From a virus, in IMG/VR virus record IMGVR_UViG_3300049822_000176, positions 1 through 64,000 of that record: DNA of 64,000 nt; one strand, 5' to 3'. Below are positions 10,101-56,611 of this stretch, piece after piece. Each line of letters starts with the position of its first letter. The first letter of the stretch is position 1. The translations under genes and the position numbers were made by a program. Below the pieces are notes generated by a model, which ran no database searches, was not told the DNA's origin, and saw only the letters and a list, made by a program, of their open reading frames with translations.

Positions 10101-10393
10101 GACCACACCCACGACGGCTCGTCGCCGTTGCCGTTCCAGTGAGCAGCCCCGAAGATCTTCGACGTGATCGGCGGCATCCCCTCAGCGAGCATGCGCACCG
10201 AGTCCACGATCGCGGCGCGCGCAGTCTCGTCGAAGTCGGCGCCCTTGCCGAGGTAGCGCAGCGTCAGGTGCAGCTGGTCGGCCGTCTCGCCGCCCTCGAT
10301 CGCCAGCCGGGTCGCGTCCTCGACTGTGGGCATCAGCGCGATCATCGCGCCCGACAGGTGCGAGCCGTCAGCGGCTGCGGTGAGCGAACCCAT
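7160..10393 (-). CDS. polyprotein: 2H-phosphoesterase (LigT-like) domain + MuF-like minor capsid domain + capsid maturation protease
   Basis: 1077 aa.
- The N terminus has HLTLRYLGK and a second H-x-[C/T]-x block (VAHVCAAY).
- The middle ...CKPCRDIDGTKY...GGYTGCLGGARCRGTL is the MuF C-terminal signature.
- The C-terminal half (APWRGPLAVEGIVTGDGREF...; ...GRIYGHAAQWGSCHIG...) is protease-like.
- An alternative start exists at 10345. Confidence 0.8.
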   Translation of the reverse strand: MGSLTAAADGSHLSGAMIALMPTVEDATRLAIEGGETADQLHLTLRYLGKGADFDETARAAIVDSVRMLAEGMPPITSKIFGAAHWNGNGDEPSWVWSVGDDPEHGQSLEAAQGMAEEALLAAPIDVELPAPHTPWVAHVCAAYSAELDLIIALEERLGLVTFDRVRVEFAGDYTDIPLSDTVTAAAGPLRRQPTELELASRVDFAQMDKAWRDAVDATVTAWADVQTAQREEITAAVQAAAEADDLDRLNSFTVDTADGARLLIARMIAYAREAGDQQQAEAEAQGVTVPDWSLDDEALTAAAIRDRLRQIGRTAARVLGVGLVQSAARQAMRVWGSGTAEQVAAQVDAHLADLSGAQLEEQVGAAMTAAQNEGRMAVLAVAPPATYTASEALDKNSCKPCRDIDGTKYTELTAARKAYPTGGYTGCLGGARCRGTLVTVWPQPDEQAAAGMILAASAATIPPTQHEQGGTVYRTMQDNPDCGADTPWAVVNEETQEVEGCYATQEEADRQAAMLNEADVPGDMPADDGDENMDYTGKTAPWRGPLAVEGIVTGDGREFAPDALTWAELPVPLRWNKEDSHGGEARTIAVNVGRIDKVWRDGSLIMGEGVLDLSDDDGRRVHAKIEGKFLRGVSIDADSIADADVEFVWPEDVNAGTSDGEDDDPFEMLFAQPEKVIFHGGRIRAATLVDIPAFAEAYIALLDEAGAVVAGGQPVTEQELQALTVQELGAVGTHTTATTDGPWDAAANEKRLDGPLTLAKARAAYAWYDGGQVEDGELPKSAAKFLHHEISADGNAGAANLAACSAAIGALHGARGGASIPDADRRGVYDHVAAHLRDAGQEPEPFRALHPVTAAAAGVFRPPAAWFSDPGLSLPTPITVTDDGRIYGHAAQWGSCHIGQEDVCVQPPHEDAHPYYRTGEVVCADGSRVAVGQITVGTGHAPLHYGASPAAEHYDNTGAAVADVAVGNDAHGIWVAGAIRPGADPLKVYELQAAGQVSGDWRRIGGQLRLVGLLGVNVPGFPVPKMRARVASGAPQALVAAGRPTVAWGRSQAEVERDAVRIVMRMLSRRVHPGRG
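9009..9042 (-). promoter_or_regulatory. conserved late element copy B inside the polyprotein gene, followed by GGGAGG and in-frame GTG 8977
   Basis: The minus strand reads ccggaatgatcttggcggcgagtgcggccacaat. It sits at the MuF/protease domain boundary. Confidence 0.4.
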
Positions 10394-12170
10394 TGCTGCT
10401 CCGAGAGATCGTCGTCAGAAAGCCGGTCGTATCCAAATGCGGGGAAAGCTGCCCGATCGTCAGCTGCCCGAACACACTCAGCCGCGCCTCATACACACCC
10501 GACGTCCCCGGCCGTGTCGCCGTCGCCAGCTTCACCGCCGCATGCGTGAACGGACACGAGTAGGCGTGCTGCGCGCACAGGCTCGGGTGCAGCAACTCCG
10601 GCGGGCGGCCCGTCGAGAACCGGACCGCATGCAGGGCGTTCGCCTGACGCGCCATCCGCGCAGCCCGCTCCTCAGCCGCCGCAGCCTGCGCCGCCCCGTC
10701 CACCGGCGGCGGAGCGCCGGACGCATCCGGCGGCGTCCGATCCTCCGCCGGCTCGTCCGACGCCGGCGTGCCGGCTTCTCCTGGTGGTGCGGCGGCCACG
10801 GGCTGAATGGTGATCTGGTCGCCCGTGAGCTCCGACAGCGCGGACCCGGCACCAGAGGGAAGGGTCTTGATGATGACCTTGAGGCCCTGTTCCTTCAGCT
10901 CCTCCGCTGTCGGCTTGTCCGTCTCGTCGAAACCGGTCTCGCGGCGGAGGGCGTCGCCGTTGATCTCCAGCCGGTCGTACAGCTGGATGGCGTCGTCGGA
11001 GCGGTCGGGGCGCAGGGTCAGTTCGGACATGTCGTACCAGACAACCCAGTTCGCCCAGTCCTCTACGCGGGAGGCCCTGAGGCGCGGCTGAAGGTAGCCG
11101 GTGGTGAGGGCCGCGGAGATGAGTTCGGCGTCGGGTGCGACGTTGACTTTCAGTGATGTCTCGTCGACTGCCCACGCGTTCCAGTGGTTGAGGTCGCCCA
11201 TCCCCAACAGGACTTCGGGGGGCACGTTGAGCTGCGAGGCCAGGCGCTTGATCGCGGAGTCCCGCTTCTCGATGATCTTCTCGTCGATCTTCAGGGTGAA
11301 GTCGATGTGGCGGATCTTCTCGACGTACTCGCCCGGCACCCGGATGGGCATCGGCAGCACGCCCGATGCCGTCCCCGGCTGACTGATCGCCGTGCGCCCG
11401 TTCTCGATCCACTCCTCCATGAACGGGTCCGCGGCGTCAGCGAACTCTTCCCGCACGGGGAAGGTGATCTCGTCGGGGAAGATGACCACTCCGGCCGACG
11501 CGAGGCGCGACAGGTACTGGGCTTGAATGTGCCGGTTGACGAGCTCCAGTTCCCGCATCGTCGAGCGGGCTGCGCGGGCCGGGCTGTCGGCGATGTGGTG
11601 GTAGCGCTTGTTCGGCCGCCATACCCGGATCGGCGCCATGGAGTCGGCGGCGAGGGGCCGCCAGTTCGTTCCGGTGCGGGGACTGTTCTCGTCGATGACT
11701 TCGTAGTGGCCGCGCGCTGCCTGGACTTCGTCGATGGAGCGGACGGACCATTGCTCGATGCCGTTGATGTTCTCGACGATCAGATAGCCCTCGCCGGGGA
11801 CTGCGAGTTGTGTGCCGAGTCCGGCCATGATCTGGGCTTGTCCGGCGACGCCTCCGGCGAACTGCGTCATGAGGTCGACGGCGGTTCCGGCGTCGGTGCG
11901 GACTGGTTCATCGGTGCCGGGCTCCAGCTTCGCGGCGTAGAAGCGGACGCGGGAGAGCATGTTGGCTTCCCAGTCGGCGGCGTACCGGAATTCACCGAGG
12001 GTGTCGTAGTACTCCCAGGCTTCGTTTTGCCAGGCGTCGGGGGTGCGGATGAGTTCGGTGCGGGGGCTGGTGACCGGTGCGGCGGCGGCGGTGACGGCCT
12101 GGGGTTGGGGGTTCGGTGTGGGGCGTGCAGGCACAGGGCCGCGCCGTGTGAATGCGTGGTACCAGGCCAC
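10368..12170 (-). CDS. portal protein
   Basis: 600 aa, GTG start with AGGAGG 5 nt upstream. Its size and its position between terL and the MuF/protease gene fit a portal. The central sequence is portal-like and the tail is acidic/Pro-rich. Confidence 0.8.
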   Translation of the reverse strand: MAWYHAFTRRGPVPARPTPNPQPQAVTAAAAPVTSPRTELIRTPDAWQNEAWEYYDTLGEFRYAADWEANMLSRVRFYAAKLEPGTDEPVRTDAGTAVDLMTQFAGGVAGQAQIMAGLGTQLAVPGEGYLIVENINGIEQWSVRSIDEVQAARGHYEVIDENSPRTGTNWRPLAADSMAPIRVWRPNKRYHHIADSPARAARSTMRELELVNRHIQAQYLSRLASAGVVIFPDEITFPVREEFADAADPFMEEWIENGRTAISQPGTASGVLPMPIRVPGEYVEKIRHIDFTLKIDEKIIEKRDSAIKRLASQLNVPPEVLLGMGDLNHWNAWAVDETSLKVNVAPDAELISAALTTGYLQPRLRASRVEDWANWVVWYDMSELTLRPDRSDDAIQLYDRLEINGDALRRETGFDETDKPTAEELKEQGLKVIIKTLPSGAGSALSELTGDQITIQPVAAAPPGEAGTPASDEPAEDRTPPDASGAPPPVDGAAQAAAAEERAARMARQANALHAVRFSTGRPPELLHPSLCAQHAYSCPFTHAAVKLATATRPGTSGVYEARLSVFGQLTIGQLSPHLDTTGFLTTISRSSNGFAHRSR

Positions 12171-13442: not shown

Positions 13443-14868
13443 TCACCGTAGCCGCCCGCCGAGGATCTGCTTTCTGGCCAGACCACCACCCAACGAACCC
13501 GTGCCGCGCGCAGCCGTCCCCACCAACTTGAGCTGCCACGCCGGCCACACCATCGCGTCGAGTCGATCAGGTGACCAGCCGAGTTCCGGATACCAAGTCG
13601 CGAGCTGGTCCTCCAGTTCGGGGAACACGCCGGCCATATGCCACCGCCCCTGCGCTGCGAGGGCGGCGACGGGCTGCGCGCGCACCACCTTCCCTCGCGT
13701 CGCCGTCACCGTGCGGATCGGGATGTCCACACCGAGCGCCTCCGCCGCCGTCCGCAGCGTCGCCACGGCCATAGCCCCGCCATAGTTGATCTCACACGTG
13801 ATCTCATCGGCTTCCCAGTCGACCGCCGCCTGCACCGCACGACGCCCCCACTGATCCGGCGACAGCTTGCACGACCGGTCATCGAGGACGAAGCCGTGGT
13901 GCTGCGGCCGCTCTTGCGCCTGAGCGCGCACGAGGAGTGCATCTTCGCGGCCCAGCGGCGAACCCGGCAACGCGCTCGGCAGCAGGAGCCCCGACTTCCC
14001 CACGACGACAATGCCCTGCTCCCCGGCCCCGCCCGACGGGTCGACACCGACGGAAATCCTGGTGAGCTCCGGTACCTCGTCGGGCCGGACACGGGTCGCT
14101 TCAAGTGTGGCGCGCGTCCACAGGGCGTCGGTGGCTTCGTCGATGAGCCGGCCTTGGAGTTCCTGCGCGCCGATGTCGGTGCCGGCGTAGGCGTCTTCGA
14201 GGGCGTCCTTCACGGACTGCTCGAGGTGCGGGTTGTCGTACATCGTGGCGTGCGTGTGGACGATGCCGGGGATGTCCCCGCTCAGCATGCGTTTCAGGAG
14301 CGGGCGCGGCTTCGGGGTGGTCGCGGCAATCCAGTGCGGGTGGGGTCCGGAGCGCAGACCGAACCGGAGCTGGTCGTAGGTCTGCTCCATGTACCGCCAC
14401 GTCGCGAACTCCTCCATGACCGCAAGGCACGAGTTGCCCGCCGCGCGCAGTCGCTCCACGTCCTCGGGGGTGTGGGCCCCGAGCAGCTTCGCCTGCGACC
14501 CGTTCGGCCAGCGGATGACGGTACCGCCGGGGGCCTGCACGAGGCGGGCGCCGGGGTCGGCGTTGCGGATGCCGCCGGGCCCTTCGTACATGGAGGTGAC
14601 GCCGTCGCCGATGGTGGGCGCAATGATCGCGATCCAGTGCGGTACGGGGCCGGGGAGGCAGGGGGGTCCGTCGACGTGCTGGCGGACGTACTCGGCGCAG
14701 GCTTTCGACTTGCCGGCTCCTCGGTAATCGACCGGCCATCAAAAGCCAGCCGGTCCAATCACCTCCCGGGGGGATCTGGTGGGGTTGTGGTTGCCAGCGC
14801 GGCTTGAGGTGGGCGGCGAGGAGTTCGGCGGCGCGTTGCGCTACGCGGGCCTTGTCCTCTGCGGTCAT
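13443..14868 (-). pseudogene. terminase large subunit, reading frame broken at 14725..14738 (needs a +1 shift)
   Basis: - The N-terminal frame (ATG 14868) reads MTAEDKARV...PPGGDWTGWLLMAGR, then junk.
- The next frame reads (stop)WPVDYRGAGKSKACAEYV...MYEGPGG..., with the P-loop and the nuclease half running to 13443.
- No start codon lies upstream of the P-loop in the second frame. Confidence 0.8.
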
Positions 14869-36718: not shown

Positions 36719-37464
36719 GCGGGGTCCTCGACGATCTCGGCGTCGGGAATGTCGGCGGCTTCGGCTTGCTGGCGGGCGAAGAACGCGGCGGCGCGGGCTT
36801 TGATCGCCTGCTCCTGCGTGACGCGCTGCTCCACCGTCACTTCCGGAACACCCTGTGCGGCCCTCAGGCGGGCGCTGTGCGGCTTCGGGCGGGGTTTCCC
36901 CATCGGCTGCTTCTCGGATCCGCCAGGCGTCTTGCACGGGCGCCCTATGGCCGCGTGGCAGGCGGGGCAGACGACGCCGAGCGGGCCGGCGCGGCGGACG
37001 GAGTCGACTGCGGCCTCTTCGTCGGAGGTCGGGACGGTGCGGTTGCCTTCCCAGCCGCGGGCCTCCAGCTCCTCCATGAACTCGCGGGCCGGGCCGCCCT
37101 CGAGTGCGAGCCGGCCGGAGGGCGCAGCGACACGGCCCGAGGCGATCGCCTGAACCTGGCCGCGGTAGCGGGCGATGAACTCGGCTGGCGTCTCGTCCCC
37201 GATCGGCTCGTACTGGAAGTTCTCCAGACGGGCGGACCGGATCTTCGAGCGGAGCGTGCGGACGTGGTGCGGAAGGATCCACAGCTTGCCGTCGGGGTCC
37301 TTCGGGGCGGTCGTGTAGTAGGCGGCGACGGCGGCCTTGGTGTCGCCGTCGAGCGGGATGTCGTTGAGGGCTGCGGCCCATGCCAGTGCGGCACCCTGGC
37401 TGGGCTTGCGGTTGTCGAATGCCGCGCAGTGGCCGAGCAGTTCGGCTGCCTCTCGTGGATTCAT
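36715..37464 (-). CDS. hypothetical protein with CPACHAAIGRPC zinc-finger-like motif
   Basis: 249 aa. It is downstream of and coupled to the initiator-like gene. Confidence 0.6.
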   Translation of the reverse strand: MNPREAAELLGHCAAFDNRKPSQGAALAWAAALNDIPLDGDTKAAVAAYYTTAPKDPDGKLWILPHHVRTLRSKIRSARLENFQYEPIGDETPAEFIARYRGQVQAIASGRVAAPSGRLALEGGPAREFMEELEARGWEGNRTVPTSDEEAAVDSVRRAGPLGVVCPACHAAIGRPCKTPGGSEKQPMGKPRPKPHSARLRAAQGVPEVTVEQRVTQEQAIKARAAAFFARQQAEAADIPDAEIVEDPA

Positions 37465-38660
37465 GCGGAGTCCTCGGAGTGGGTGTCGTAGTCGGCGAGG
37501 GATGCGGCGACGGCGCCCCAGCCGGCGAGGTTGGTGTCGGTGCCGGGCAGCGGCTGGCCGGAGGCGATGTCGACGACGGTGCCGCCCTGGTAGGTGCCGC
37601 GGATCTTGGAGAAGGCGAACTGGAGACTGTTCGCGGTGACCGGCTTGCTCGTCTCACCGAGCTGCTCTACGGCGCGCCACAGCTCGGCGGGGTCGGTCTG
37701 GTTGGCGAGGGCGTCGGCGATCGTGGTTCGCACTTGGCGGCGCTTGTAGGAGTTGCCGCGGGCGAAGCGGTCGAGGAAGGCGTCGGTCATCCGGTCGGCG
37801 ATGGGCCTCTCGCCCGTCTGCACGACGGCGGGTTCGCTGGCTCGACCGGTGGGGGGTAGGGGGGTGTTCCCTTCCCTTCCTTTCCCTTCCTTTCCCTTCC
37901 CTTCCGTCAGTGAATGGTTCAGTGAATAAATGTCGCCGTCGGTAGCGAACAGGGACTCACTCATCAACGGAGCGTTAGATTCCTTCACTGAGTCATTCAC
38001 TGAACCGTTCACGGAAATGTCGTGCGCGTTCACTGAACGGTTCAGTGCGTCATCCACGGACGCCTCGATCCCGGCAAGACTGCTCGGCGGAACGAACTCC
38101 TCACCATCCGGCGCGCCCCGGCGGCTCTTGTGGCACGCCGCATGCGTGGCCCGGACGTTCGACGGGTGGTCGCTCCCGCCGGCCAGCTGCGGGCGGATGT
38201 GGTCGATCGCAAGGTTGTGGTCGTCGTTCACGACAGGCAGCCGCGGGATGTCGAAGCCGCAGAGCTGGCAGACCCAGCCGTCGCGGCGGGCGTACATGTC
38301 GCGGACTTTGTAGCTGCCCAGCGCGGGCGGCGGAAGCTTGGACTTCTGCGGCCGGTTGATTCGCTGGTGCTTGCGGAAGTTCACGACGACGGCCATCTGC
38401 TGGCGGGCCACGCCGCCGATGTATGGGAAGAGCAGGCCGGCGTCGGCGAGCAGGCCCATGAGGTGCTCGACGTACTTGAGGGTGACGTCGTCGTCGTACA
38501 TGAACGTCTGCGCCTTGATGTACGACGGCGTCCAGCGGAGCAGGCCTTCGTCGTCGGCCATGTTGAACGTGGAGATGAAGAGCAGCCGCGCATCGCGAGG
38601 CAGCAGCCCGACGACCTCGTCCTCCCACAGCTCAGGCTTCACAGTGCGGATGCGCGGCAT
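37461..38660 (-). CDS. replication-initiator-like DNA-binding protein with internal HNH nuclease motif
   Basis: 399 aa.
- The N terminus MPRIRTVKPELWEDE...LLFISTFNMADDEG is a pattern I associate with phage/ICE replication organiser proteins.
- DHIRPQLAGGSDHPSNVRATHAACH is the HNH motif.
- The low-complexity linker is encoded by the iteron cluster. Confidence 0.55.
   Translation of the reverse strand: MPRIRTVKPELWEDEVVGLLPRDARLLFISTFNMADDEGLLRWTPSYIKAQTFMYDDDVTLKYVEHLMGLLADAGLLFPYIGGVARQQMAVVVNFRKHQRINRPQKSKLPPPALGSYKVRDMYARRDGWVCQLCGFDIPRLPVVNDDHNLAIDHIRPQLAGGSDHPSNVRATHAACHKSRRGAPDGEEFVPPSSLAGIEASVDDALNRSVNAHDISVNGSVNDSVKESNAPLMSESLFATDGDIYSLNHSLTEGKGKEGKGREGNTPLPPTGRASEPAVVQTGERPIADRMTDAFLDRFARGNSYKRRQVRTTIADALANQTDPAELWRAVEQLGETSKPVTANSLQFAFSKIRGTYQGGTVVDIASGQPLPGTDTNLAGWGAVAASLADYDTHSEDSA
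37867..37905. repeat. 39-nt pure polypyrimidine (plus strand) CCCTTCC/TTTCCCTTCC tract
   Basis: ttcccttcccttcctttcccttcctttcccttcccttcc, read directly. It encodes EGKGKEGKGREGN in the initiator-like gene. Confidence 0.9.
37907..38047. repeat. iteron-like cluster: about 7 copies of TTCACTGA / TCAGTGAA in both orientations
   Basis: - Copies at 37907, 37919, 37984, 37996 and 38029.
- A variant at 38008.
- A partial copy at 38042 that forms the palindrome CACTGAACGGTTCAGTG.
- The local GC content is visibly lower. Confidence 0.8.
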
Positions 38661-38729: not shown

Positions 38730-40199
38730 CTATTGGCTGGCGAGCGGGTACTGGTCGAGCCACTGCATGCCGGGTGCGGTCCGCAGGTTGGGCTTGAGGT
38801 GGACGCGGCAGCCGGCGTCGAGTGCCTGGACAACGGTCCGGGCGACCCATTCGAAGGGCGGCGCGAACGCGGGGACGTGGCCGTCGGGCTGCCGGGTCTC
38901 GGTCTGCGCGCCGATGACGACCCAGTCGAAGACGGACAGGTCGGTGAACTCGAGCGGTTCACGGAGCGGTTCGAGGGACAGCCACTTGACGGCGACGCCG
39001 TCGATCTTCCGGAAGGCGTCTTCGGCGATGCGGACGCGCTTCTGTTCGTCGACCGACGTGCCGACCCATGCGCCGGGCGGCATGTCCAGGCCGACGTATC
39101 GGGCGGGGAACTTCGTCAGGGTGATGTACTGCCACTGCGGGTTGGCGCACATGGAGGCGTGGACCTTGCCGATCCACTCGTCGGGGACCCAGCGGCCGTA
39201 CAGGTCGGCCATGGAACAGACGAACACCCGCTGGTAGGCCGGGTCATCGCGGCGGGCGGCGGGGATGGCCGTGTTCGCGGGGGCGTCGAGACGCTCGTGG
39301 TGGAACAGTGGGGTGAAGCCGGCCGGGTAGGCGCTGCTGTAGCGCTCGTCGGTGGCGATGGCGCGGGCGTAGCAGTAGGTGCAGCCGTGCAGGCATCCGG
39401 TTACGGGGTTCCAGGACCAGGCGGCCCATGAGATTCCGGCGCCCTTGGTCTCGTTGAAGGTGGCCTTGGCCTGCGGCTCGGGGTACTTGACCTCTTCACC
39501 GGTGTGGGTGCGAAGAGTGAGGAAGGTACGGGTGGGCTTCGGTACCGGCTCGGGCTTGGGCATCGCGGCGAGGCGCTGCTTGCGCTCACGGTCGGCGCGG
39601 TCGAGGGCGATCTCTCCAGCGCGGACCTTGGCGGCGAGATCGGGCGCATCACGGACGACAGCCTTCGCCTGTTGGACCGCGCGGCCGGACGCGCCGACGA
39701 CCTTTGCCGCGCGCTCGTCCGATCGCTGCTGACGTCGAGCCTGCGGCTCAATCCACTCGCCAGCCGTGCGCAGATCTGCGCGCGTTGTATCAGCAGAAGG
39801 CGACGGTCCGGGCGGTCGATGTGACGCGTTGTGATTGCCGACCGGGGCGCCCTTCGGCTGGGCAGCGGCGTAGTACCGCTCGTACTCCAGCGCCATCAGT
39901 GCGCGTTGCCCTGCGTTGAGTTGGCGACGGGCCATGTTCTTCGACACGATCAGGTCGAGGATCATCGGCTCTGTGTAGTGCGTACCGAGCCGCTCGTAGA
40001 CCTGATCTGAGCCTGCGGCCTCACAGGCCCGGTATCGGTTGCGTCCGTCGATCAGCACGGTGCCGTCGTGGTTCAGGATGATCGGCTCGCGCAGACCGTT
40101 CTTCTTCACGTCCATGACGAGCTGACCGAACTCGTCTCCGTCGATCAGCGGAAACGCGTCCGCGAACGGGTGGACCTCGAATTCTCCGAGACGTGCCAT
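38730..40199 (-). CDS. ParB-like nuclease domain fused to DUF5131 (phage Gp37/Gp68 family, three-Cys motif)
   Basis: 489 aa from ATG 40199.
- The N terminus ...PIILNHDGTVLIDGRNRYRA is ParB/Srx-like.
- The C-terminal half reads WSWNPVTGCLHGCTYCYA...VFVCSMADLYG...ITLTKFP...WVGTSV...KWLSLEPL...DWVVIGA, which follows the PF07505 pattern. Confidence 0.75.
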   Translation of the reverse strand: MARLGEFEVHPFADAFPLIDGDEFGQLVMDVKKNGLREPIILNHDGTVLIDGRNRYRACEAAGSDQVYERLGTHYTEPMILDLIVSKNMARRQLNAGQRALMALEYERYYAAAQPKGAPVGNHNASHRPPGPSPSADTTRADLRTAGEWIEPQARRQQRSDERAAKVVGASGRAVQQAKAVVRDAPDLAAKVRAGEIALDRADRERKQRLAAMPKPEPVPKPTRTFLTLRTHTGEEVKYPEPQAKATFNETKGAGISWAAWSWNPVTGCLHGCTYCYARAIATDERYSSAYPAGFTPLFHHERLDAPANTAIPAARRDDPAYQRVFVCSMADLYGRWVPDEWIGKVHASMCANPQWQYITLTKFPARYVGLDMPPGAWVGTSVDEQKRVRIAEDAFRKIDGVAVKWLSLEPLREPLEFTDLSVFDWVVIGAQTETRQPDGHVPAFAPPFEWVARTVVQALDAGCRVHLKPNLRTAPGMQWLDQYPLASQ

Positions 40200-40462
40200 C
40201 AGTCGGCCTTTCCGTGGATGTCGCAGTGGCAGCGATGGCACACGGCGAGCAGGTTGGTGGGGACGTCGAACGCACCCCACGGCGGATAGCGCAGGTGGTG
40301 AGGCTCAGTCGGCGGCCGGTCGCCGCAGCGCTCGCATCGGCCGCCGGCTCGCTCGAACGCCGCCTTCCTGACCGCGAGGAACCGCGGGTGACGCAGGTAC
40401 TCGGCGTAGGAGCGGTACGGCTTGTCGATGCCGGGCTGCGGCGGCGCGTAGTGGCGAGTCAC
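40199..40462 (-). CDS. small HNH-type nuclease-like protein
   Basis: 87 aa from GTG 40462 (GTGA overlap): GGRCERCG...PHHLRYPPWG...LLAVCHRCHCDIH. Confidence 0.55.
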   Translation of the reverse strand: MTRHYAPPQPGIDKPYRSYAEYLRHPRFLAVRKAAFERAGGRCERCGDRPPTEPHHLRYPPWGAFDVPTNLLAVCHRCHCDIHGKAD

Positions 40463-41445
40463 GCCACGTCGTCCAAGCCGAAGAGCGTCAGGTCGCCACC
40501 GTCGTCCGGGAGGTCGCCGGGCTTCGGCGCGACCGGGCGCGGGATCATCGCGAGCCGCTGCTCGCTGCTCGCCGCCATCCACTCGCGCTCACGGCCGCGG
40601 ATCTGCTCCAGCTCCGACTTCTGAAGGAACAGGCGCAGCAGGAGGTCATCAAACTGGTGGGGCTCCTGCCGCCACCAGGCGATGCTCACGGACCGGTTGC
40701 AGTTCTTGGCGCTCTTCTTGGCGGCTTGATCGGTCTTGGCGCGCCACTCCTTGGAGGTGGCCACCAGGTAGGCCCACTGCGCTTCGTCCCGGTCGAGTGC
40801 GGCAAGCGAGAGGTCCCGGTACTCGGGCATGGCTTGTTGCTGCTCGCGGACGGTGGCGAACCAGTTGATGCGGTCGGTGATGGGGCCGCGCTTGATGCCG
40901 CCGGGGTTGCAGCCCATCGTCGACAGGCAGCGGGAGAGCCACGTCTTGGTGGCGATCTCGGCGGCAAAGGTGGGGCGCATGGCCCACTCGGTGATGGCGT
41001 TGGGGTCGTTGACGACGAACACGGCCGTGTCGCGGTCGATGTCGGTGACGTCGGCGTTGGCGCCGCTGCGGTTGTACGCCGTCACGGCCGACTCGCTGCC
41101 CGGGTGAGTCCACGTGCCCGGCCCTTCCGCGGTGTAGCCGAGGGCCGGAAGGTAGATGCCCAGGTTGCTGAGGAGACGGTCGTATGTGGCGGGCTGGATC
41201 TCGTGCAGGCGGACATGCACGGGTACCGGGCACTGAGATGCGTGGTAAGCGAGGATGCCGGGCGAGCAGGCGCGATGCCACATTTTTCCGGGGATGAGTG
41301 CGGCGTCGCCTGCGGTGAGGTCGTACCAGGTGCCGCGTTGGGCGCCGAGGTGGGCGATGGCTCCGGCCTCTTGCCCGACGATGCTCCACGTGTAGTCGTG
41401 CTTGATGGGTGTGCGCCAGCTGCGGCCGACGTTGGGCTTTGCCAT
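40459..41445 (-). CDS. TcmP-like (three-Cys-motif partner) methyltransferase-fold protein, putative
   Basis: 328 aa from ATG 41445 with GAGGAG RBS. WYDLTAGDAA, CSPGILA, VRLHEIQPATYDRLLSNL and VFVVNDPN resemble the TcmP/TIGR04474 pattern. This is from recollection. Confidence 0.5.
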   Translation of the reverse strand: MAKPNVGRSWRTPIKHDYTWSIVGQEAGAIAHLGAQRGTWYDLTAGDAALIPGKMWHRACSPGILAYHASQCPVPVHVRLHEIQPATYDRLLSNLGIYLPALGYTAEGPGTWTHPGSESAVTAYNRSGANADVTDIDRDTAVFVVNDPNAITEWAMRPTFAAEIATKTWLSRCLSTMGCNPGGIKRGPITDRINWFATVREQQQAMPEYRDLSLAALDRDEAQWAYLVATSKEWRAKTDQAAKKSAKNCNRSVSIAWWRQEPHQFDDLLLRLFLQKSELEQIRGREREWMAASSEQRLAMIPRPVAPKPGDLPDDGGDLTLFGLDDVA

Positions 41446-41551
41446 TGAGGGTCTCCTCTGCTTTTGAACATGGCTGGTTAGGGCGTCTTGGCAGCGCTGG
41501 CCTCGCACTGCCATACTACTTTAAAGGTTGGAAAGAATGGAAGGATTGGTA

Positions 41552-41884
41552 ATGACTTACACTCTGTTCATGCCTGCTGACCAGCGCATTCAGATCGCAG
41601 ATGACGGCGTCGCCGAGGTCCCGATGACCCACGCCCGGGCCGCGCTGACCGCACTCATCCGCGAGGTCAGCTGGGGCAAGCGCCCCGGCGCCTTCACGGA
41701 ACGCGGTAGCCGGGTCGCCGTGGTGATCCCGACCGAGGAATATGAGGGGCTCGCCGTACTTCGCGAACTCCGGAAGTACGTGGAGGAGCTGGAGGCCGGC
41801 ACCGCGCCAGACCACGCGCACAAGGCGCGCATCCTTGGCGAGGCCCTGGCCTTGGCGACGCGTCGCGCGCTTGATTCGTCCTGA
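41552..41884 (+). CDS. Phd/YefM-family antitoxin-like protein, no adjacent toxin
   Basis: 110 aa (alternative starts at 41528 and 41537). ...VPMTHARAALTALIREV...AFTERGSRVAVVIPTEEYEGL is the Phd/YefM N-terminal fold pattern. It is the only plus-strand gene between 29.8 and 54.3 kb. Confidence 0.65.
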   Translation: MTYTLFMPADQRIQIADDGVAEVPMTHARAALTALIREVSWGKRPGAFTERGSRVAVVIPTEEYEGLAVLRELRKYVEELEAGTAPDHAHKARILGEALALATRRALDSS

Positions 41885-41939: not shown

Positions 41940-42080
41940 CTACTGGCCTGGGGCGCGGGTCTTCCGGGGTATGCGGCGGTCGCAGCGGATGGGGTCGGCG
42001 CATTGGGGTTTGCCGTCCCACCAGGTGGGTTTGCCTTGGGTGGGCTGTCGGCACCACTGGCAGATGGGGCGGGCGGTCAT
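41940..42080 (-). CDS. small zinc-ribbon-like protein (46 aa)
   Basis: ATG 42080 in an ATGA overlap: MTARPICQWCRQPTQGKPTWWDGKPQCADPIRCDRR... Confidence 0.45.
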   Translation of the reverse strand: MTARPICQWCRQPTQGKPTWWDGKPQCADPIRCDRRIPRKTRAPGQ

Positions 42081-48046: not shown

Positions 48047-48928
48047 CTACTGGCCGGAACCGGGCTGTGCCGCGGCCGGCCACTGCGCCGGGGCGTGGTC
48101 CTCGTCGACGAACTCGCCCTCAATCGGGCCGTCCTCCTCGCCGTCGTCGCCGTCGTCCGGGAGGTCGGCGGAAGGCTGCGGCAGCGGCGGCGCGAACCCG
48201 GCCGGAAGTTCAGCGGCAACCTCGGCCTGTGCACGCATCTGCTCGCGCATGTACTCGGCGCTGGTGGGCACCCACTTGGCGAGGCGACGCGCGGCGGTCT
48301 TCAACCACATCGCTTCCTCGTTGGTGTTCCACGGGGAGAAGTCGCTGTTGCGGCCGTCGGACTTGGCCTTGGCGTCCATGACCTGCTGCCGGTTGAGGAT
48401 GACGACCTTCGACGTGGCGCCGTCCTTCATGACGGCGTAGGCGTACACGCCGACGAGATCTCCGCGCTCGCCGCTGAACCAGTTCACGTCGTGCACGGGT
48501 CGTTCGTCACGGCCGATGACGTACCGGAACGTGTCGTTGGCTCGGACCGTCTCGACGACCACCGACGACACAGCGCCCGCGCGGTAGATCAGTTCGACGA
48601 TGCCTTGGTAGCCGACGATGCCCTTGATGATTTTCTGGCCGCGGTGGGCTTTCGACTTGCGGGGCGTCAGGTAGAACTGCTCGGTGCCCGGCTCCAGGCC
48701 GAGACGGGCCGCGGTCTTCAGCTCCCGCAGGAACACGCCGACGTCGTTCTGTGCGGCCTGCTCGAGGTCGCGGTTGCCGCGGATGGCACCGACTGCGAGA
48801 CGCACCCACATGTCGGCGTTGACGTGGGAGGGGACAAGCGCGGCGTATTCGGCCTTGTACTGCTCGACCATCGCGCCGGGGCTGTTGTCGCGGACGGCGA
48901 CGGCGTTGGAGACGGTGTTGTCGGTCAT
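48047..48928 (-). CDS. recT: RecT-family single-strand annealing protein
   Basis: 293 aa from ATG 48928 (ATGA overlap). LKTAARLGLEPGTEQFYLTP...GIVGYQGIVELIYRAG is RecT-like, with an acidic tail. Confidence 0.75.
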   Translation of the reverse strand: MTDNTVSNAVAVRDNSPGAMVEQYKAEYAALVPSHVNADMWVRLAVGAIRGNRDLEQAAQNDVGVFLRELKTAARLGLEPGTEQFYLTPRKSKAHRGQKIIKGIVGYQGIVELIYRAGAVSSVVVETVRANDTFRYVIGRDERPVHDVNWFSGERGDLVGVYAYAVMKDGATSKVVILNRQQVMDAKAKSDGRNSDFSPWNTNEEAMWLKTAARRLAKWVPTSAEYMREQMRAQAEVAAELPAGFAPPLPQPSADLPDDGDDGEEDGPIEGEFVDEDHAPAQWPAAAQPGSGQ

Positions 48929-49824
48929 CGGGCGTTCCTTCGGGTACGGGCCGGCATGAGGGAGTAGGTGGATCCGTTGCGGACCTGGCGGGTGGCGATC
49001 CGGGCGCGTTCGCACACAGCGCGCTGCCCGGTACCAATCGCGTCGAGGAGCAGGCCCTTGCAGGCAGTCAGCTCGTCCTCCGCCGCCCACGCCGCGTCCT
49101 GCGCCGCATAGAAGCGGTCACGCAGCAGCGTGGTGATCTCGACATCGATCGGGTCGAGACCCTCGGGGATCTCTCGGATCGCCTGATAGGTGGCGGAGTG
49201 GCCGTCGATGTCCGGACGGTTGTTGCGGGCGAGGTCGTCCATGAAGCGGGCGCCGGCCTCACGCAGGAGCAGGGCTTCGTCCGCGTCGTAGTCGACGGCG
49301 TACTCGCGGTATTCCGACCCGGCGATCAGTACGCCCACCCAGCAGCGGCGGGTGCCGGTGACGTCCATGTAGTGGAGGCACTGGGCGCGGTAGTGGACGG
49401 GGATTTGGTCGGTGCCCTCCTCGCCCCAGCCTTCGCTGTCGCGGGCGGTCTTCGCTTCGAAGAGGTCCGGTCCGGCGTGACGGTCGGGGTTGGCGATCTG
49501 CCACGGCCGGTCGGGGTGGCAGTAGGTGGGTGCGGGTGTGACGTCGAGGTCGGGGTGTTCGCGGGCGAAGCGGCGGCAGATGGCGGGCTCGTGTTCCTTG
49601 CCCCAGTACATTTCCTCGGATTCTTCGACGGGGGCGATGAGGTTCTTCTTGCGGTGCCAGAGGGAGAACGCCGACTCGTAGGGGGAGAGACCGAGGACGG
49701 CGGCGATCTCGCTGCCGCCGATGCCGTTGGCGCGGGCGGCGTGCCAGTCGTCGGAGCCGGGCTCGAAGTGGCCCAGGACGACCGGGCCGGCGGCCGGGGC
49801 TTCGGTCTGCACGGTGGCGGTCAC
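48925..49824 (-). CDS. YqaJ-type (lambda Exo-like) recombination exonuclease
   Basis: 299 aa. GIGGSEIAAVLGLSPYESAFSLWHRK is the typical YqaJ N-terminal motif. It is paired with recT. Confidence 0.75.
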   Translation of the reverse strand: MTATVQTEAPAAGPVVLGHFEPGSDDWHAARANGIGGSEIAAVLGLSPYESAFSLWHRKKNLIAPVEESEEMYWGKEHEPAICRRFAREHPDLDVTPAPTYCHPDRPWQIANPDRHAGPDLFEAKTARDSEGWGEEGTDQIPVHYRAQCLHYMDVTGTRRCWVGVLIAGSEYREYAVDYDADEALLLREAGARFMDDLARNNRPDIDGHSATYQAIREIPEGLDPIDVEITTLLRDRFYAAQDAAWAAEDELTACKGLLLDAIGTGQRAVCERARIATRQVRNGSTYSLMPARTRRNAR

Positions 49825-55089: not shown

Positions 55090-55335
55090 ATGTGCGTCCG
55101 CATCCGCTTCACAGCCCACTCCACTGCGCCGATCTACGACGGCGCTGGGCTGATCACCCTTCCTGCATCCATCGCCACTTCACGCAGGGTCACCGCCGTC
55201 CGTGCGGTTCTCTCTGAACTTCACGTCATTCAACCCGAGTTGGGTGCAGTCTGCTGGTGCGGGGAGACGATTCTTCTCCTCCCCGCAGTACCTCAGCAGC
55301 GAAGGAGCGAGCAGGTGGTGAAGCATGGGGCGTAG
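55090..55335 (+). CDS. small hypothetical protein overlapping the integrase start
   Basis: 81 aa from ATG 55090 (MCVRIRFTAHSTAPIYDG...). Its end overlaps the integrase ATG by 11 nt. Confidence 0.4.
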   Translation: MCVRIRFTAHSTAPIYDGAGLITLPASIATSRRVTAVRAVLSELHVIQPELGAVCWCGETILLLPAVPQQRRSEQVVKHGA

Positions 55336-56611
55336 CGCCTCGAACAATCCGCGGCAGATCCGCGTGAAGACATGCGGATGCCAGGACTGCATGACCACAT
55401 ACCCGCCCGAGAACGGGAACCCCGAGCGTCGCCGACGCCGGGACTGCGCCGGTCCGTGGCAGGCCCGATACCGGGACCCGTCAGGGAAGCAGAAAGCGAA
55501 GAACTTCCCCATCGCAGCCGGCGGGAAGAAGGCGGCCGAGGCGTTCCTCGACAAGACGCGGACGAAGGTTCGCGAGCGGACGTATGGGGACCCCAAGCGC
55601 GGCGAGATCACTCTCGCCGACTGGTGGGAGAAGTGGTGGGAAGCCCAGCCCGATCGGGCCGTCACGACGACGAACAGGAAGCTGTCCAACTGGAACGCCC
55701 ACATCAAGCCCAAGTGGGGCCAGTGGCGGCTGTGCGACCTGGAGTACATCGAGCTCCAGGCGTGGCTCACGAAGGAGGTGAAGGGCTATCACACCCGGAA
55801 GAAGGTGTGCGAGGTCCTCAACCAGATGCTGCGGGCCGCGGTGAAGGACGGCCGACGTATCCCCTTCAACCCGGCCGCAGACCTCGAGGTCGGCGAGGCT
55901 CCGGCCAAGCACCCAGATGATTTGCGGCCGCCGACGCGTGAGCAGGTCGCGCTCATCGTGGAGCAGTTGCCGATGTACTACCGGCCGTTGGTGGTGTTCC
56001 TGGAGAACACGGGGATGCGGTGGGGTGAGGCGACGGGGCTTCGGTGGGAGAACGTGGACCTCGAGGCTCAGCACCTCAAGGTGAAGGAAGTGCTCAGCGA
56101 GGACGACGGGAAGTTGTTCCGGAAGGCGGCGCCCAAGAGCGTGGCCGGTTTCCGGACTGTGCCGGTGACGCCTCAAGCGGCCGACGCGGTGCGGACGATG
56201 GCGGCTCGGTGGCGGCCGGCGGAGTCGGTGACGCCCATCGGCGATGACCCCTACGATCTGGTGCCGGCCGAGCTGGTGTTCCGGGGGCCGCAGGGCGGCG
56301 TGCTGACGCGGCACAACTTTCGTCGTGTGTGGGTGCCGGCCATTCAGGAGGCGGGCCTGGCACGGCAGGTGAAGAACCCGGAGACGGGTCGTATGGAGTG
56401 GTGGCCGCGGGTGCACGACTTGAGGCATGTGTTTGCGACGTGGTTGAAGGATCTGGGGATTCCGGAGAAGGATGCGCAGGCGGTCATGGGTCATGAGCGT
56501 GGGTCGAAGGTGACGTGGATTTACCAGCATGCGCCGGAGGATGTGGCGGCGAAGGTGCGGGCTCGGATGGCGCCGGAGTCGGAGGGTGTTCGAGTGCTGA
56601 GGGCGGTGTGA
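55325..56611 (+). CDS. int: tyrosine integrase
   Basis: 428 aa. It has an N-terminal SAM-like domain and the C-terminal motifs ...GMRWGEATGLRWENVDL..., HDLRHVFATWL and MGHERGSKVTWIYQH (R..HxxR..Y). Confidence 0.85.
   Translation: MGRSASNNPRQIRVKTCGCQDCMTTYPPENGNPERRRRRDCAGPWQARYRDPSGKQKAKNFPIAAGGKKAAEAFLDKTRTKVRERTYGDPKRGEITLADWWEKWWEAQPDRAVTTTNRKLSNWNAHIKPKWGQWRLCDLEYIELQAWLTKEVKGYHTRKKVCEVLNQMLRAAVKDGRRIPFNPAADLEVGEAPAKHPDDLRPPTREQVALIVEQLPMYYRPLVVFLENTGMRWGEATGLRWENVDLEAQHLKVKEVLSEDDGKLFRKAAPKSVAGFRTVPVTPQAADAVRTMAARWRPAESVTPIGDDPYDLVPAELVFRGPQGGVLTRHNFRRVWVPAIQEAGLARQVKNPETGRMEWWPRVHDLRHVFATWLKDLGIPEKDAQAVMGHERGSKVTWIYQHAPEDVAAKVRARMAPESEGVRVLRAV

What the first reader, a model, noticed from the sequence alone, without database searches (positions are those of the whole stretch)
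38730..41445. TcmP-like + HNH + ParB-DUF5131 trio with its own promoter in the early region: candidate uncharacterised DNA-directed system
Three translationally coupled genes start from an AT-richer promoter region at 41446..41551.

- A 328-aa protein has SAM-methyltransferase-like blocks (WYDLTAGDAA, VFVVNDPN). I read it as the three-Cys-motif partner protein TcmP.
- An 87-aa HNH-type protein follows.
- A 489-aa fusion joins a ParB/Srx-like nuclease domain (LIDGRNRYRA) to a DUF5131 (phage Gp37/Gp68, PF07505) domain with the WNPVTGC-x3-GC-x-YCYA cysteine motif.

DUF5131 and TcmP are known only as a co-occurring pair of unknown function. The ParB-type DNA-handling domain, the embedded HNH, and the position directly upstream of the replication-initiator gene and its iterons point to an activity on phage or host DNA. 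That could be modification, nicking or an anti-restriction function.
Basis: partly seen in the sequence, partly recalled or inferred. Interest (0 to 1): 0.75.

Follow-up and report, generated by a model that had tools for sequence, protein, structure and literature searches.

The report
Phage radical-SAM and methyltransferase-like gene pair
A temperate actinobacterial phage starts its DNA-replication operon with a conserved, uncharacterised cassette (a methyltransferase-like protein, a small HNH nuclease and a ParB-tethered radical-SAM enzyme) that most likely modifies DNA chemically, though nobody has tested what it does.

Summary
Three overlapping minus-strand genes (328, 87 and 489 aa) follow a 106-bp intergenic region of 51% GC.

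- **Fusion protein:** it carries a firm DUF5131 (PF07505) radical-SAM domain. Its ParB N-domain is weaker but consistent.
- **Middle gene:** it encodes an intact HNH.
- **328-aa protein:** it matches no Pfam, NCBIfam, PHROGs or PADLOC model, so it fails TcmP's curated model. It folds as a class I methyltransferase. A 75-sequence profile of its family aligns with true TcmP (hhalign 77%, E=2e-5). 19 of 75 relatives touch TIGR04474, and the profile hits a bona fide Streptomyces TcmP. It is a divergent TcmP-superfamily branch.
- **Conservation:** in 25 of 25 related loci the gene sits directly before ParB-DUF5131. HNH is present in 17 of 25. Natural fusions (MT+ParB+DUF5131, MT+DUF5131, MT+HNH) show the parts work together.
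- **Context:** the cassette heads replication operons. In one locus it lies between a primase-helicase and a DNA polymerase.
- **Defence link:** canonical TcmP/DUF5131 pairs are PADLOC candidate defence systems PDC-M30 and PDC-M41.

My best reading is replication-coupled DNA modification, which is inferred, not shown. This is a new variant of a known, uncharacterised pair and is moderately interesting.

The parts
41446..41551 (.). Divergent intergenic and promoter region (106 bp, 51% GC). By eye it holds a minus-strand -35 TTCCAT (41542-41537), an 18-nt spacer and a -10 TAGTAT (41518-41513). An inverted repeat TGGCAGCGC/GCACTGCCA lies at 41489-41513.
   Evidence: - Composition.
- Sequence.
- Inverted repeat.
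- The block is conserved in viral contigs L024, L026, L027, L030 and L031, with partly compensatory changes in the repeat.
- The only consensus sigma-70 hit is on the + strand, at 41488-41517.
40459..41445 (-). 328-aa TcmP-superfamily protein with a class I (Rossmann) methyltransferase fold. Its conserved motifs are K15-H16, D42-L-T-A-G46-D, S61-P62-G, E82 and D147-P148-N149. It ends in a disordered C-terminal tail, ..DLTLFGLDDVA.
   Evidence: - No Pfam, NCBIfam, PHROGs or PADLOC hit.
- AF2 pLDDT 86.
- Foldseek top hits are RlmJ/DUF519, E=3e-7.
- Family profile against TcmP profile: 76.9%, E=2.1e-5.
- 19 of 75 family members hit TIGR04474.
- The profile hits the TcmP of pSCO1.
40199..40462 (-). 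87-aa stand-alone HNH (beta-beta-alpha-Me) nuclease with CxxC...CxxC zinc ligands and a PHH..N..H motif. It overlaps both neighbouring genes.
   Evidence: - PHROGs HNH families, down to 4.7e-10.
- IscB HNH region, 4e-5.
- Pfam PF01844, 0.023, below cut-off.
- Overlaps.
- Present in 17 of 25 related loci and fused to the MT-like protein in P0089.
38730..40199 (-). 489-aa fusion protein. The N-terminal part is a ParB/Srx domain (about aa 18-99, box LIDGRNRYRA at 40026-40055). A helical linker follows. The C-terminal part is a DUF5131 radical-SAM domain (Pfam match aa 255-432, CX3CX2C at 39366-39413).
   Evidence: - PF07505, 8.4e-33.
- TIGR04471, 7e-16, and SPL-like Rv2578c/PA0069 families, about 5e-6 around the Cys motif.
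- ParB: PHROGs 2e-7, PF02195 0.006, PDB ParB 7bnr 1e-3 aligning GRNRYRA with GERRWRA.
- More than 2600 homologues, some carrying PF02195.
41552..41884 (+). Divergently transcribed 110-aa Phd/YefM-like gene, a possible regulator of the shared control region. It is a conserved neighbour, not part of the enzyme cassette.
   Evidence: - TIGR01552, 24.3 bits, above the 20.8 cut-off.
- Pfam PF02604, 4e-5, below cut-off.
- GC3 is 0.81, against 0.70 for the antisense ORF.
- Conserved, divergent, in L024, L026, L027, L030 and L031.
37461..38660 (-). Downstream operon member: a 399-aa replication initiator with an internal HNH domain. Iteron-like repeats (TCACTGAACGGTTCAGTG, 4 copies, 37907-38047) lie inside the gene.
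   Evidence: - phrog_5718, 6e-173, plus replication-initiation PHROGs.
- PF01844, 4e-6.
- Repeats.
- No terminator-like site in the 69-bp gap after the fusion gene.

Best explanation
**What it is**

The locus is a two-enzyme, SAM-using nucleic-acid modification cassette. It is carried as the first genes of the phage's replication operon.

**Components (shown)**
- A divergent TcmP-superfamily protein with a class I methyltransferase fold. Its SAM-binding-type motifs are retained.
- A DUF5131 radical-SAM enzyme with the three-Cys CX3CX2C motif. It is tethered to a ParB/Srx N-domain.
- The two are obligate partners, sometimes fused into one polypeptide.
- A small HNH nuclease is an accessory in about two thirds of loci.

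**How it most likely works (inferred)**
1. The cassette is transcribed early, together with the initiator.
2. The ParB domain brings the radical-SAM enzyme onto DNA.
3. The methyltransferase-like partner binds or methylates the target base.
4. Together the two install a covalent modification on replicating phage DNA. This shields the DNA from host restriction.
5. The HNH may nick or degrade unmodified DNA.
6. The partner's conserved C-terminal peptide (..LFxL(D/E)..A) may dock it to the sliding clamp or to its partner.
For: **Identity of the parts:**

**Functional coupling**
- The gene pair is adjacent in 25 of 25 independent loci (12 genomes, 1 plasmid and 13 viral contigs, of which one is a duplicate). 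Partner identity in these loci falls to about 30%.
- Rosetta-stone fusions exist: P0303 (MT+ParB+DUF5131), P0345 (MT+DUF5131) and P0089 (MT+HNH).
- Start and stop codons overlap in the window.

**DNA and replication context**
- The window is a temperate phage (capsid, portal, terminase, RecT, integrase).
- The cassette is followed by the initiator gene and its internal iterons.
- In L018 the cassette sits, with overlapping codons, between a D5-like primase-helicase and a family-A DNA polymerase. In L011 a DnaB helicase follows.
- Solo DUF5131 genes in mycobacteriophages sit among DNA methylases, an HNH and replication initiators.

**Chemistry leads**
- DUF5131 is a radical-SAM subgroup. It is placed in megacluster 5, the same megacluster as spore photoproduct lyase (PMC9477430).
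- It has local similarity to SPL-like Rv2578c/PA0069 families.
- The HNH is conserved at 59-83% identity while the MT-like partner drops to about 40%. This argues for a retained component.
- Tail motif: 70 of 89 long-tailed members carry it, against about 4 expected by shuffling.
Against: - No experiment or publication shows any activity for DUF5131 or TcmP.
- Canonical TcmP/DUF5131 pairs are catalogued as candidate anti-phage defence systems (PDC-M30, PDC-M41). They occur as two-gene cassettes next to integrases and IS elements on plasmids.
- The partner's catalytic-site motif is D-P-N, not the (D/N)PP(Y/F/W) of amino-methyltransferases (established knowledge). Methyl transfer is therefore not assured.
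- Its closest solved folds are RNA methyltransferases (RlmJ, Trm1, TYW4), so an RNA substrate is not excluded.
- The ParB assignment is below Pfam's cut-off for this protein.
- The clamp-binding idea rests only on motif resemblance, recalled from memory.
- The substrate, the chemistry and the anti-restriction benefit are all inferred.
Confidence: 0.4

Rival explanations
1. The cassette is a prophage-borne anti-phage defence or superinfection-exclusion system, a ParB-fused variant of PADLOC candidates PDC-M30 and PDC-M41. It would mark or attack incoming foreign DNA, with HNH and/or the ParB 'nuclease' domain as effector. It would benefit the lysogen.
For: - The DUF5131 domain hits PDC-M41B and PDC-M30B at about 1e-30. 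True TcmP hits PDC-M30A and PDC-M41A.
- TcmP/DUF5131 cassettes lie beside integrases, IS elements and a large DNA methyltransferase on plasmids.
- A TcmP gene lies two locus tags from the Hna defence helicase gene in S. meliloti (SMa2243 and SMa2245) and is listed next to it among genes up-regulated with NolR (PMC12445080).
- Some chromosomal copies lie next to a STAND NTPase.
- The cassette has its own promoter and a conserved divergent small regulator-like gene.
Against: - The cassette is co-oriented with, and translationally and transcriptionally contiguous with, the lytic replication genes. Lysogeny-expressed morons are not usually arranged like this.
- In L018 it is wedged between primase-helicase and polymerase genes.
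- The PDC systems are only candidates. The two papers that mention PDC-M30 do so once each, and I did not read those passages. No validation study turned up.
- The window's 328-aa protein hits no PADLOC model.
Confidence: 0.2
2. The cassette is a DNA repair or lesion-processing module. The DUF5131 radical-SAM enzyme would reverse or process a DNA lesion, as spore photoproduct lyase does, on incoming or replicating phage DNA. ParB would provide DNA binding and HNH would provide incision.
For: - DUF5131 is grouped in the same radical-SAM megacluster as spore photoproduct lyase (PMC9477430).
- It shows local similarity to SPL-like Rv2578c/PA0069 families.
- It often occurs without any TcmP-like partner in actinophage early regions near RecE/RecT.
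Against: - The similarity to SPL-like families covers only the Cys-motif region, at E of about 1e-5 to 1e-6 and far below the curated cut-offs.
- An obligate methyltransferase-fold partner, even fused to it, is not expected for a lyase.
- No PDB relative could be found to test active-site residues.
Confidence: 0.1
3. The cassette is an RNA-directed modification module (tRNA or rRNA) used for host takeover or translation tuning. The methyltransferase-like partner would act as its nearest structural relatives do.
For: - The best solved-structure matches of the 328-aa model are the rRNA m6A methyltransferase RlmJ, tRNA Trm1 and TYW4.
- The TcmP model also matches Trm1 and TYW4.
- One family member weakly hits Taw2.
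- Radical-SAM plus methyltransferase-fold pairs are typical of wybutosine-type tRNA pathways (established knowledge).
Against: - TM-scores are modest (0.4-0.5).
- No sequence-level link to RlmJ was found.
- The ParB N-domain, the HNH, the replication-module context and the wHTH of canonical TcmP all point to DNA.
Confidence: 0.1
4. The middle HNH gene is a selfish free-standing homing endonuclease that lodged between the two partner genes. It is not a working part of the system, which is then only a pair.
For: - HNH is absent from 8 of 25 loci that keep the pair intact.
- Free-standing HNH genes are common intergenic invaders in phages (established knowledge).
- The downstream initiator carries its own HNH domain.
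Against: - When present, the HNH is always at the same position.
- It diverges along with the cassette: 59-83% identity, tracking DUF5131 and less divergent than the MT partner.
- It is translationally coupled to both neighbours.
- It occurs fused in-frame to the MT-like protein (P0089).
Confidence: 0.15

Closest known systems
TcmP (TIGR04474) plus DUF5131/'phage Gp37/Gp68' (PF07505) gene pair, listed in PADLOC-DB as candidate systems PDC-M30 and PDC-M41
   Same: - A methyltransferase-fold partner is encoded next to a three-Cys radical-SAM DUF5131 protein. The genes often overlap and lie on mobile DNA.
- The partner families share the N-terminal Lys, the D-L-x-x-G-[DE]-G motif, the S-P motif and the D-P motif, in register.
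   Different: - The window's partner fails the TIGR04474, PADLOC and Pfam models.
- It lacks the GMT-like wHTH found in canonical TcmP and instead has a helical end plus a disordered motif-bearing tail.
- Its DUF5131 belongs to a distinct clade. The clade has CX3CX2C where canonical proteins have CX6-7CX2C, and 'GAQT..PDG..' where they have 'GGESG'. It also carries an N-terminal ParB domain.
- An HNH is often inserted between the two genes.
- It is embedded in phage replication operons rather than in stand-alone cassettes.
ParB-domain/DNA-methyltransferase fusions and orphan methyltransferases of phages (anti-restriction self-modification)
   Same: - A ParB/Srx N-domain is joined to a SAM-dependent DNA-modifying enzyme.
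- It lies in the early/replication region of temperate actinophages. Examples are the DNA methylases beside DUF5131 in prophiGD53-3 and Phayonce.
   Different: - Here the ParB domain is fused to a radical-SAM enzyme, not to a methyltransferase.
- The methyltransferase-like protein is separate and has a D-P-N site instead of (D/N)PP(Y/F/W).
RlmJ / DUF519 (23S rRNA m6A2030 methyltransferase)
   Same: It is the closest solved fold: Foldseek E=3e-7, TM 0.42-0.54. The order of motifs is similar (N-terminal K-H helix, D..AG.G, S-P, acidic residue after beta-2, D-P-x). This comparison is from memory of RlmJ and from reading the rlmJ sequence.
   Different: - No significant sequence or profile relationship was found.
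- RlmJ acts alone on rRNA and has DPPY.
Radical SAM mobile pair (TIGR04471 with TIGR04470) and SPL-like Rv2578c/PA0069 radical-SAM proteins
   Same: They are small radical-SAM enzymes on mobile elements. The best NCBIfam hit of the DUF5131 domain is TIGR04471, at 7e-16.
   Different: - The score (58 bits) is far below the 355-bit cut-off.
- The partner here is a methyltransferase-fold protein, not a second radical-SAM enzyme.

Membership tests
TcmP (NCBIfam TIGR04474, three-Cys-motif partner protein) | Scores at or above the curated cut-off (53 bits) against TIGR04474 | tested here: not met
   - The window protein has no hit at E<=0.01.
- None of its 47 close homologues hits at E<=10.
- 19 of 75 distant family members hit. 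The best E-value among them was 2.2e-9 (its bit score was not printed), and the scores I saw (17-21 bits) are below cut-off.
- True TcmPs score 111-156 bits.
TcmP (NCBIfam TIGR04474, three-Cys-motif partner protein) | Encoded next to a PF07505 (three-Cys) gene | tested here: met
   It is adjacent, with at most an HNH between, in the window and in 25 of 25 related loci. It is fused to DUF5131 in P0303 and P0345.
TcmP (NCBIfam TIGR04474, three-Cys-motif partner protein) | Homologous core (profile-level similarity with shared conserved residues) | tested here: met
   - hhalign of A3 against A2: 76.9%, E=2.1e-5, 209 columns, in register. The shallower A1 alignment gave only 1.6%.
- The A3 HMM hits the pSCO1 TcmP at E=4.4e-8 in a small database.
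- Both models are class I methyltransferase folds that share the unusual hits Trm1, TYW4, GRAS and HNMT.
DUF5131 / phage Gp37-Gp68 (Pfam PF07505) | Scores above the gathering threshold (28.9 bits) and has the three conserved Cys residues | tested here: met
   It scores 114.3 bits, E=8.4e-33. C269, C273 and C276 fall in the invariant W-N-P-x-x-G-C...C-x-x-C-Y-A block.
Radical SAM superfamily | CX3CX2C cluster-binding motif, and an experimentally shown [4Fe-4S] cluster with SAM cleavage | tested here: inconclusive
   - The motif is present with canonical spacing.
- DUF5131 is listed as a radical-SAM subgroup (PMC9477430).
- PF04055 itself is not hit for the window protein. Fused relatives reach only 0.0017-0.17.
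- The biochemistry cannot be tested with these tools.
ParB/Srx N-terminal domain (Pfam PF02195) | Scores above the gathering threshold (26.3 bits), with an arginine-rich GxxRxxA box | tested here: inconclusive
   - 17 bits, E=0.006, below cut-off.
- PHROGs ParB-like families reach 2e-7.
- PDB ParB 7bnr reaches 1e-3, with GRNRYRA aligned to GERRWRA.
- Several 70-78% identical homologues carry a precomputed PF02195 hit.
HNH endonuclease (Pfam PF01844) | Beta-beta-alpha-Me motif with catalytic His, Asn and His, and model score above the cut-off | tested here: inconclusive
   - Pfam gives 15.2 bits against a 21.4 cut-off.
- Thirteen PHROGs families hit (12 annotated as HNH or HNH-containing), down to 4.7e-10. 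The IscB HNH region hits at 4e-5.
- The CxxC..PHH..N..CxxCxxxH residues are present.
PADLOC candidate defence systems PDC-M30 and PDC-M41 | Both components (A = TcmP-type, B = DUF5131-type) match the system's models | tested here: not met
   Component B is matched at about 1e-30. The 328-aa protein matches no A model at E<=0.01.
RlmJ / DUF519 methyltransferases | Sequence or profile homology to RlmJ, with a DPPY catalytic motif | tested here: not met
   The similarity is at fold level only. hhalign against E. coli RlmJ gives 0.3%. A profile search against PDB sequences is negative. The motif here is D-P-N.

The most novel reading that the evidence does not exclude
The ParB-tethered DUF5131 radical-SAM enzyme and its TcmP-like partner install a previously unknown, radical-chemistry-derived base modification on phage DNA as it is replicated. 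The partner's C-terminal peptide recruits it to the sliding clamp. The HNH removes unmodified DNA. The same chemistry would then underlie the bacterial PDC-M30 and PDC-M41 candidates. That would make TcmP/DUF5131 a new family of DNA-modification systems used on both sides of the phage-host conflict.
Probability: 0.2. Interest if true: 0.85.

Novelty: new variant of a known kind. Interest (0 to 1): 0.55.

Why it matters
- **Scale of the unknown.** DUF5131 and TcmP are large families with no assigned activity. The fusion has more than 2600 relatives and the partner has about 300 clusters at 50% identity. They occur on phages, plasmids and defence islands.
- **What this locus adds.** It supplies the strongest contextual clues so far. 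The clues are an obligate methyltransferase-fold partner missed by all current models, natural three-domain fusions, a DNA-targeting ParB domain, and placement at the head of replication operons.
- **Why it is useful.** These clues make the function directly testable in a tractable Streptomyces phage.
- **If the function is DNA modification.** It would add radical-SAM chemistry to the repertoire of phage anti-restriction. It would also explain two orphan 'candidate defence' entries.

Tried and rejected
- **Direct model searches of the 328-aa protein.** Pfam, NCBIfam, PHROGs and PADLOC gave nothing. tblastn against GenBank phages gave nothing.
- **Shallow profile comparisons.** hhalign with one TcmP sequence gave 0.1%. 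With the shallow A1 alignment it gave 1.6%. Both were uninformative until a diverse alignment was built.
- **RlmJ homology.** There was no profile support against the E. coli rlmJ product. Profile searches of the partner, TcmP and DUF5131 alignments against PDB sequences found only chance hits. I therefore rejected RlmJ membership and kept only the fold resemblance.
- **Near-identical DNA in phage records.** None was found.
- **Literature.**
  - DUF5131, TcmP and Gp37Gp68 searches returned only listings.
  - PDC-M30 is mentioned once each in two papers, which I did not open.
  - 'GMT-like wHTH' could not be linked to Gamma-Mobile-Trio elements, which contain no methyltransferase.
  - The radical-SAM defence system Ophion has different components: a radical-SAM enzyme with a PHP phosphatase and a phosphoribosyl transferase.
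- **Promoter scan.** The consensus scan did not find a minus-strand site. The one I propose was found by eye and is supported by conservation only.
- **Viral-contig search.** The search for related loci with the diverse alignment failed because it had no conserved stretch. I used A1 instead.
- **RNA searches.** Rfam and tRNA scans of the window were empty.

Full report
**Setting**

The window is 69% GC. It encodes a temperate siphovirus-type actinobacterial phage or prophage. Most genes lie on the minus strand:
- major head protein (5205-6965)
- portal (10368-12170)
- large terminase (13443-14591)
- RecT (48047-49090)
- a + strand integrase (55325-56611)

No near-identical DNA exists in GenBank phage records. 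A 100% identical copy of the fusion protein occurs in JGI metagenome contigs (P0366). IMG/VR contigs of 37-67 kb carry the same region at about 80% protein identity.

**Checking the observation**

- The sequence shows ...GTG GCG TGA with the HNH GTG start overlapping the stop (GTGA). It also shows ...GAC TGATG GCA for the HNH stop and fusion start. Translational coupling is therefore plausible.
- ATG 41445 is preceded by AGAGGAG at the right distance. It matches the N-termini of homologues. The longer 351-aa frame is therefore not used.
- The HNH frame is open for 127 aa. Divergent loci match only from about residue 37-54, and an MT-HNH fusion protein joins at the same point. This supports the 87-aa gene.
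- All quoted motifs are present.

The stretch 41446-41551 is 106 bp of 51% GC. It separates the cassette from a divergently transcribed + strand gene (41552-41884). That gene is Phd/YefM-like, scoring 24.3 bits on TIGR01552 against a 20.8 cut-off. Its GC3 is 0.81, against 0.70 for the antisense ORF. A promoter for the minus-strand genes must therefore lie in this stretch.

- The consensus scan found only a + strand site.
- By eye there is a TTCCAT-18 nt-TAGTAT arrangement on the minus strand.
- An inverted repeat TGGCAGCGC/GCACTGCCA lies immediately downstream.
- The whole block (CCAATCTTTAAAGTAG[T/C]ATGGC...) is conserved in five related viral contigs that also keep the divergent gene. The repeat shows partly compensatory changes.
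- No terminator-like site separates the fusion gene from the initiator gene 69 bp downstream. The cassette therefore heads a longer replication operon rather than forming a three-gene unit.

**What the parts are: the fusion protein and the HNH**

- *DUF5131 domain.* Residues 255-432 match PF07505 at E=8.4e-33 and phrog_2045 at 2e-42. The domain also matches TIGR04471 (radical SAM mobile pair A) at 7e-16. Around the Cys motif only, it matches the SPL-like Rv2578c and PA0069 radical-SAM families at about 5e-6. All of these are far below their cut-offs.
- *Radical-SAM status.* DUF5131 is a recognised radical-SAM subgroup. It is placed in the same megacluster as spore photoproduct lyase (PMC9477430).
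- *A distinct clade.* An alignment with canonical DUF5131 proteins shows the invariant W-N-P-x-x-G-C...C-x-x-C-Y-A block. It also shows that the ParB-fused proteins form their own clade. They have CX3CX2C where canonical proteins have CX6-7CX2C. They have 'VIGAQT..QPDG..' where canonical proteins have 'VIvGGESG'.
- *ParB N-domain.* This is weaker evidence: PF02195 E=0.006, below cut-off; PHROGs ParB-like families at 2e-7; solved ParB structures at about 1e-3, with GRNRYRA aligned to the GERRWRA box. Several homologues carry a precomputed PF02195 hit, and JGI names them gp37/ParB-like.
- *HNH.* The 87-aa protein has the CxxC...PHH...N...CxxCxxxH residues. It hits thirteen PHROGs families, twelve of them HNH-type, down to 5e-10.

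**What the parts are: the 328-aa protein**

This protein is the crux. It hits nothing in Pfam, NCBIfam, PHROGs or PADLOC. None of 47 homologues hits TIGR04474, even at E<=10.

Structure shows what kind of protein it is. Its AlphaFold model is confident (pLDDT 86, pTM 0.86) and is a class I Rossmann methyltransferase. The closest solved structures are RlmJ/DUF519 (E=3e-7, TM 0.42-0.54), followed by Trm1, TYW4, GRAS domains and histamine methyltransferase.

To test the TcmP link I took a bona fide TcmP from a Hymenobacter plasmid, where it overlaps a DUF5131 gene. It scores 111.5 bits on TIGR04474. I built a TcmP alignment from it.

| Test | Result |
|---|---|
| Shallow family alignment (A1) against TcmP alignment | 1.6% probability, but in register |
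| Exhaustive profile search for the family | 299 clusters at 50% identity |
| 75-sequence alignment (A3) against TcmP alignment | 76.9%, E=2.1e-5, 209 columns |
| A3 members hitting TIGR04474 | 19 of 75, best E=2.2e-9; the scores seen (17-21 bits) are below cut-off |
| A3 HMM against the TcmP of S. collinus pSCO1 (121.7 bits on TIGR04474) | E=4.4e-8 in a small database |

- The A3 alignment matches the invariant Lys of the N-terminal helix, D-L-x-x-G-[DE]-G, the S-P motif and the D-P motif.
- The TcmP model is also a class I methyltransferase, and it shares the unusual Trm1, TYW4, GRAS and HNMT hits.

The protein is therefore a divergent branch of the TcmP superfamily that current models do not capture. 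It lacks the GMT-like wHTH seen in many TcmPs. Sequence-level homology to RlmJ could not be shown.

**Conservation and coupling**

I examined 12 genome loci, one Streptomyces plasmid and 13 IMG/VR contigs. One locus is a duplicate, leaving 25 distinct loci.

- In every locus the partner gene is immediately followed by ParB-DUF5131 (by a DUF5131 fusion with a different N-terminal region in L005). The partner's identity falls to about 30%. The DUF5131 domain stays at 70-95% in most loci and drops to 41-58% in the two most distant.
- The HNH lies between them in 17 of 25 loci, always at the same place. Its identity (59-83%) tracks DUF5131 rather than looking like a recent insertion.
- Three natural fusions tie the parts together:
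  - P0303: partner + ParB + DUF5131
  - P0345: partner + DUF5131, without ParB
  - P0089: partner + HNH
- Flanking genes are otherwise poorly conserved. Where they can be identified, they are replication genes:
  - the initiator, with internal iteron-like repeats, in the window and in L024, L026, L030 and L031
  - a DnaB helicase in L011
  - in L018, a D5-like primase-helicase upstream and a family-A DNA polymerase downstream, all with overlapping codons
- Solo DUF5131 genes in mycobacteriophages sit among DNA methylases, an HNH and replication initiators. They have no TcmP-like gene nearby.

**Relation to what is known**

No paper in the library assigns a function to DUF5131 or TcmP.

- PADLOC-DB models PDC-M30A and PDC-M41A match true TcmP. 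PDC-M30B and PDC-M41B match DUF5131, including the window's domain at about 1e-30. The canonical pair is thus already catalogued as a candidate defence system.
- I found PDC-M30 mentioned once each in two papers. I did not read those passages and found no validation study.
- On plasmids of Pseudomonas (pCAR1), Streptomyces (pSCO1), Deinococcus and Hymenobacter, the canonical pair is a compact cassette next to integrases, IS elements or a large DNA methyltransferase.
- In S. meliloti, a TcmP gene (SMa2243) lies two locus tags from the Hna defence helicase gene (SMa2245). The two are listed next to each other among genes up-regulated with NolR.

**Most likely mechanism**

*Shown.* There are two SAM-type enzymes: a methyltransferase-fold partner and a three-Cys radical-SAM protein. 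They are obligatorily co-encoded and sometimes fused. The radical-SAM enzyme carries a ParB-type domain. An intact HNH is a frequent accessory. The cassette is co-transcribed in orientation, and probably in fact, with replication genes.

*Inferred.* The substrate is DNA. The ParB domain loads the enzyme on DNA. The pair installs a covalent modification on replicating phage DNA that protects it from host restriction. The HNH may act on unmodified DNA.

*Why I prefer this to the defence reading.* The cassette is wedged into lytic replication modules rather than sitting as a lysogeny-expressed moron. The defence catalogue entry, the D-P-N site (not a classical amino-methyltransferase motif) and the RNA-methyltransferase fold neighbours keep my confidence at about 0.4.

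**An extra clue**

Family members with long C-termini share a disordered tail (pLDDT<50 for 311-328). It ends in ..[x]LFx[LIVF](D/E)..A.

- 70 of 89 long-tailed members carry the motif, against about 4 expected from shuffled tails.
- 77 of 89 end in Ala.
- The motif resembles sliding-clamp-binding peptides (QL[SD]LF type, from memory). It could equally be a partner-docking peptide, because the fused forms lack it. This is a lead, not a finding.

**Verdict**

The TcmP label holds only at superfamily level, and the function is still unknown. This is a new variant of a known but uncharacterised pair. The variant features are the ParB fusion, the frequent HNH, placement in the replication operon and a partner invisible to current models. 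Interest is moderate (0.55). It is a well-defined and widespread experimental target, not yet a surprise.

Noticed in passing
window 40462-40494 (C-terminus of the 328-aa protein); family members P0001-P0120 and P0217-P0365: The protein ends in a disordered C-terminal tail with a conserved short motif, ..LFx[LIVF](D/E)..A. The motif is present in 70 of 89 long-tailed family members, against about 4 in shuffled tails, and 77 of 89 end in Ala. It resembles beta-clamp-binding peptides or a partner-docking peptide. Fused forms lack it.
   Followed up: partly
window 41489-41513 and 41513-41542; aligned with L024, L026, L027, L030 and L031 (about 5885-6006): An inverted repeat TGGCAGCGC-N7-GCACTGCCA lies just downstream of a TAGTAT -10-like box in the divergent intergenic region. 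The block is conserved across five related viral contigs, with partly compensatory changes. It is a candidate operator or 5'-leader hairpin.
   Followed up: partly
window 41552-41884 (+): A solitary Phd/YefM-antitoxin-like gene is transcribed divergently from the cassette, with no obvious toxin gene after it. A terminator-like hairpin lies at 42013-42029. The gene is conserved in the same position in related phages. It may be a regulator of the replication operon rather than an antitoxin.
   Followed up: partly
window 37907-38047 and 37867-37905 (inside gene 37461-38660): Four copies of an 18-nt iteron-like repeat (TCACTGAACGGTTCAGTG) and a (TTCCC)x8 run lie inside the initiator gene. This suggests a lambda-O-style origin within the gene. 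The initiator also carries an internal HNH domain (PF01844, 4e-6).
   Followed up: partly
P0435 (826 aa homologue of the fusion protein): A ParB-DUF5131 homologue carries a LAGLIDADG (PF14528) insertion, which suggests an intein within the DUF5131 protein.
   Followed up: no
L018 2936-9784 (Pseudonocardiaceae MAG contig): Four genes form an overlapping array: a D5-like primase-helicase, the TcmP-like gene, ParB-DUF5131 and a family-A DNA polymerase. This is the tightest replication-module context found for the pair.
   Followed up: partly
L005 5431-6786 (Streptomyces sp. NBC_01238 plasmid); L006 4000-6828 (M. intracellulare plasmid): Close DUF5131 relatives (73-77% identity) occur with other N-terminal partners. 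L005 has a non-ParB N-terminal region (weak DUF3102) and keeps the MT-like gene and HNH upstream. L006 has an unfused DUF5131 preceded by two wHTH/PadR-like proteins and no TcmP-like gene.
   Followed up: no
window 7160-10393 (-): This 1077-aa ORF combines PHROG matches to an RNA ligase (N-terminus), portal-associated families and head-maturation-protease families. It is an unusual large head-module fusion protein.
   Followed up: no
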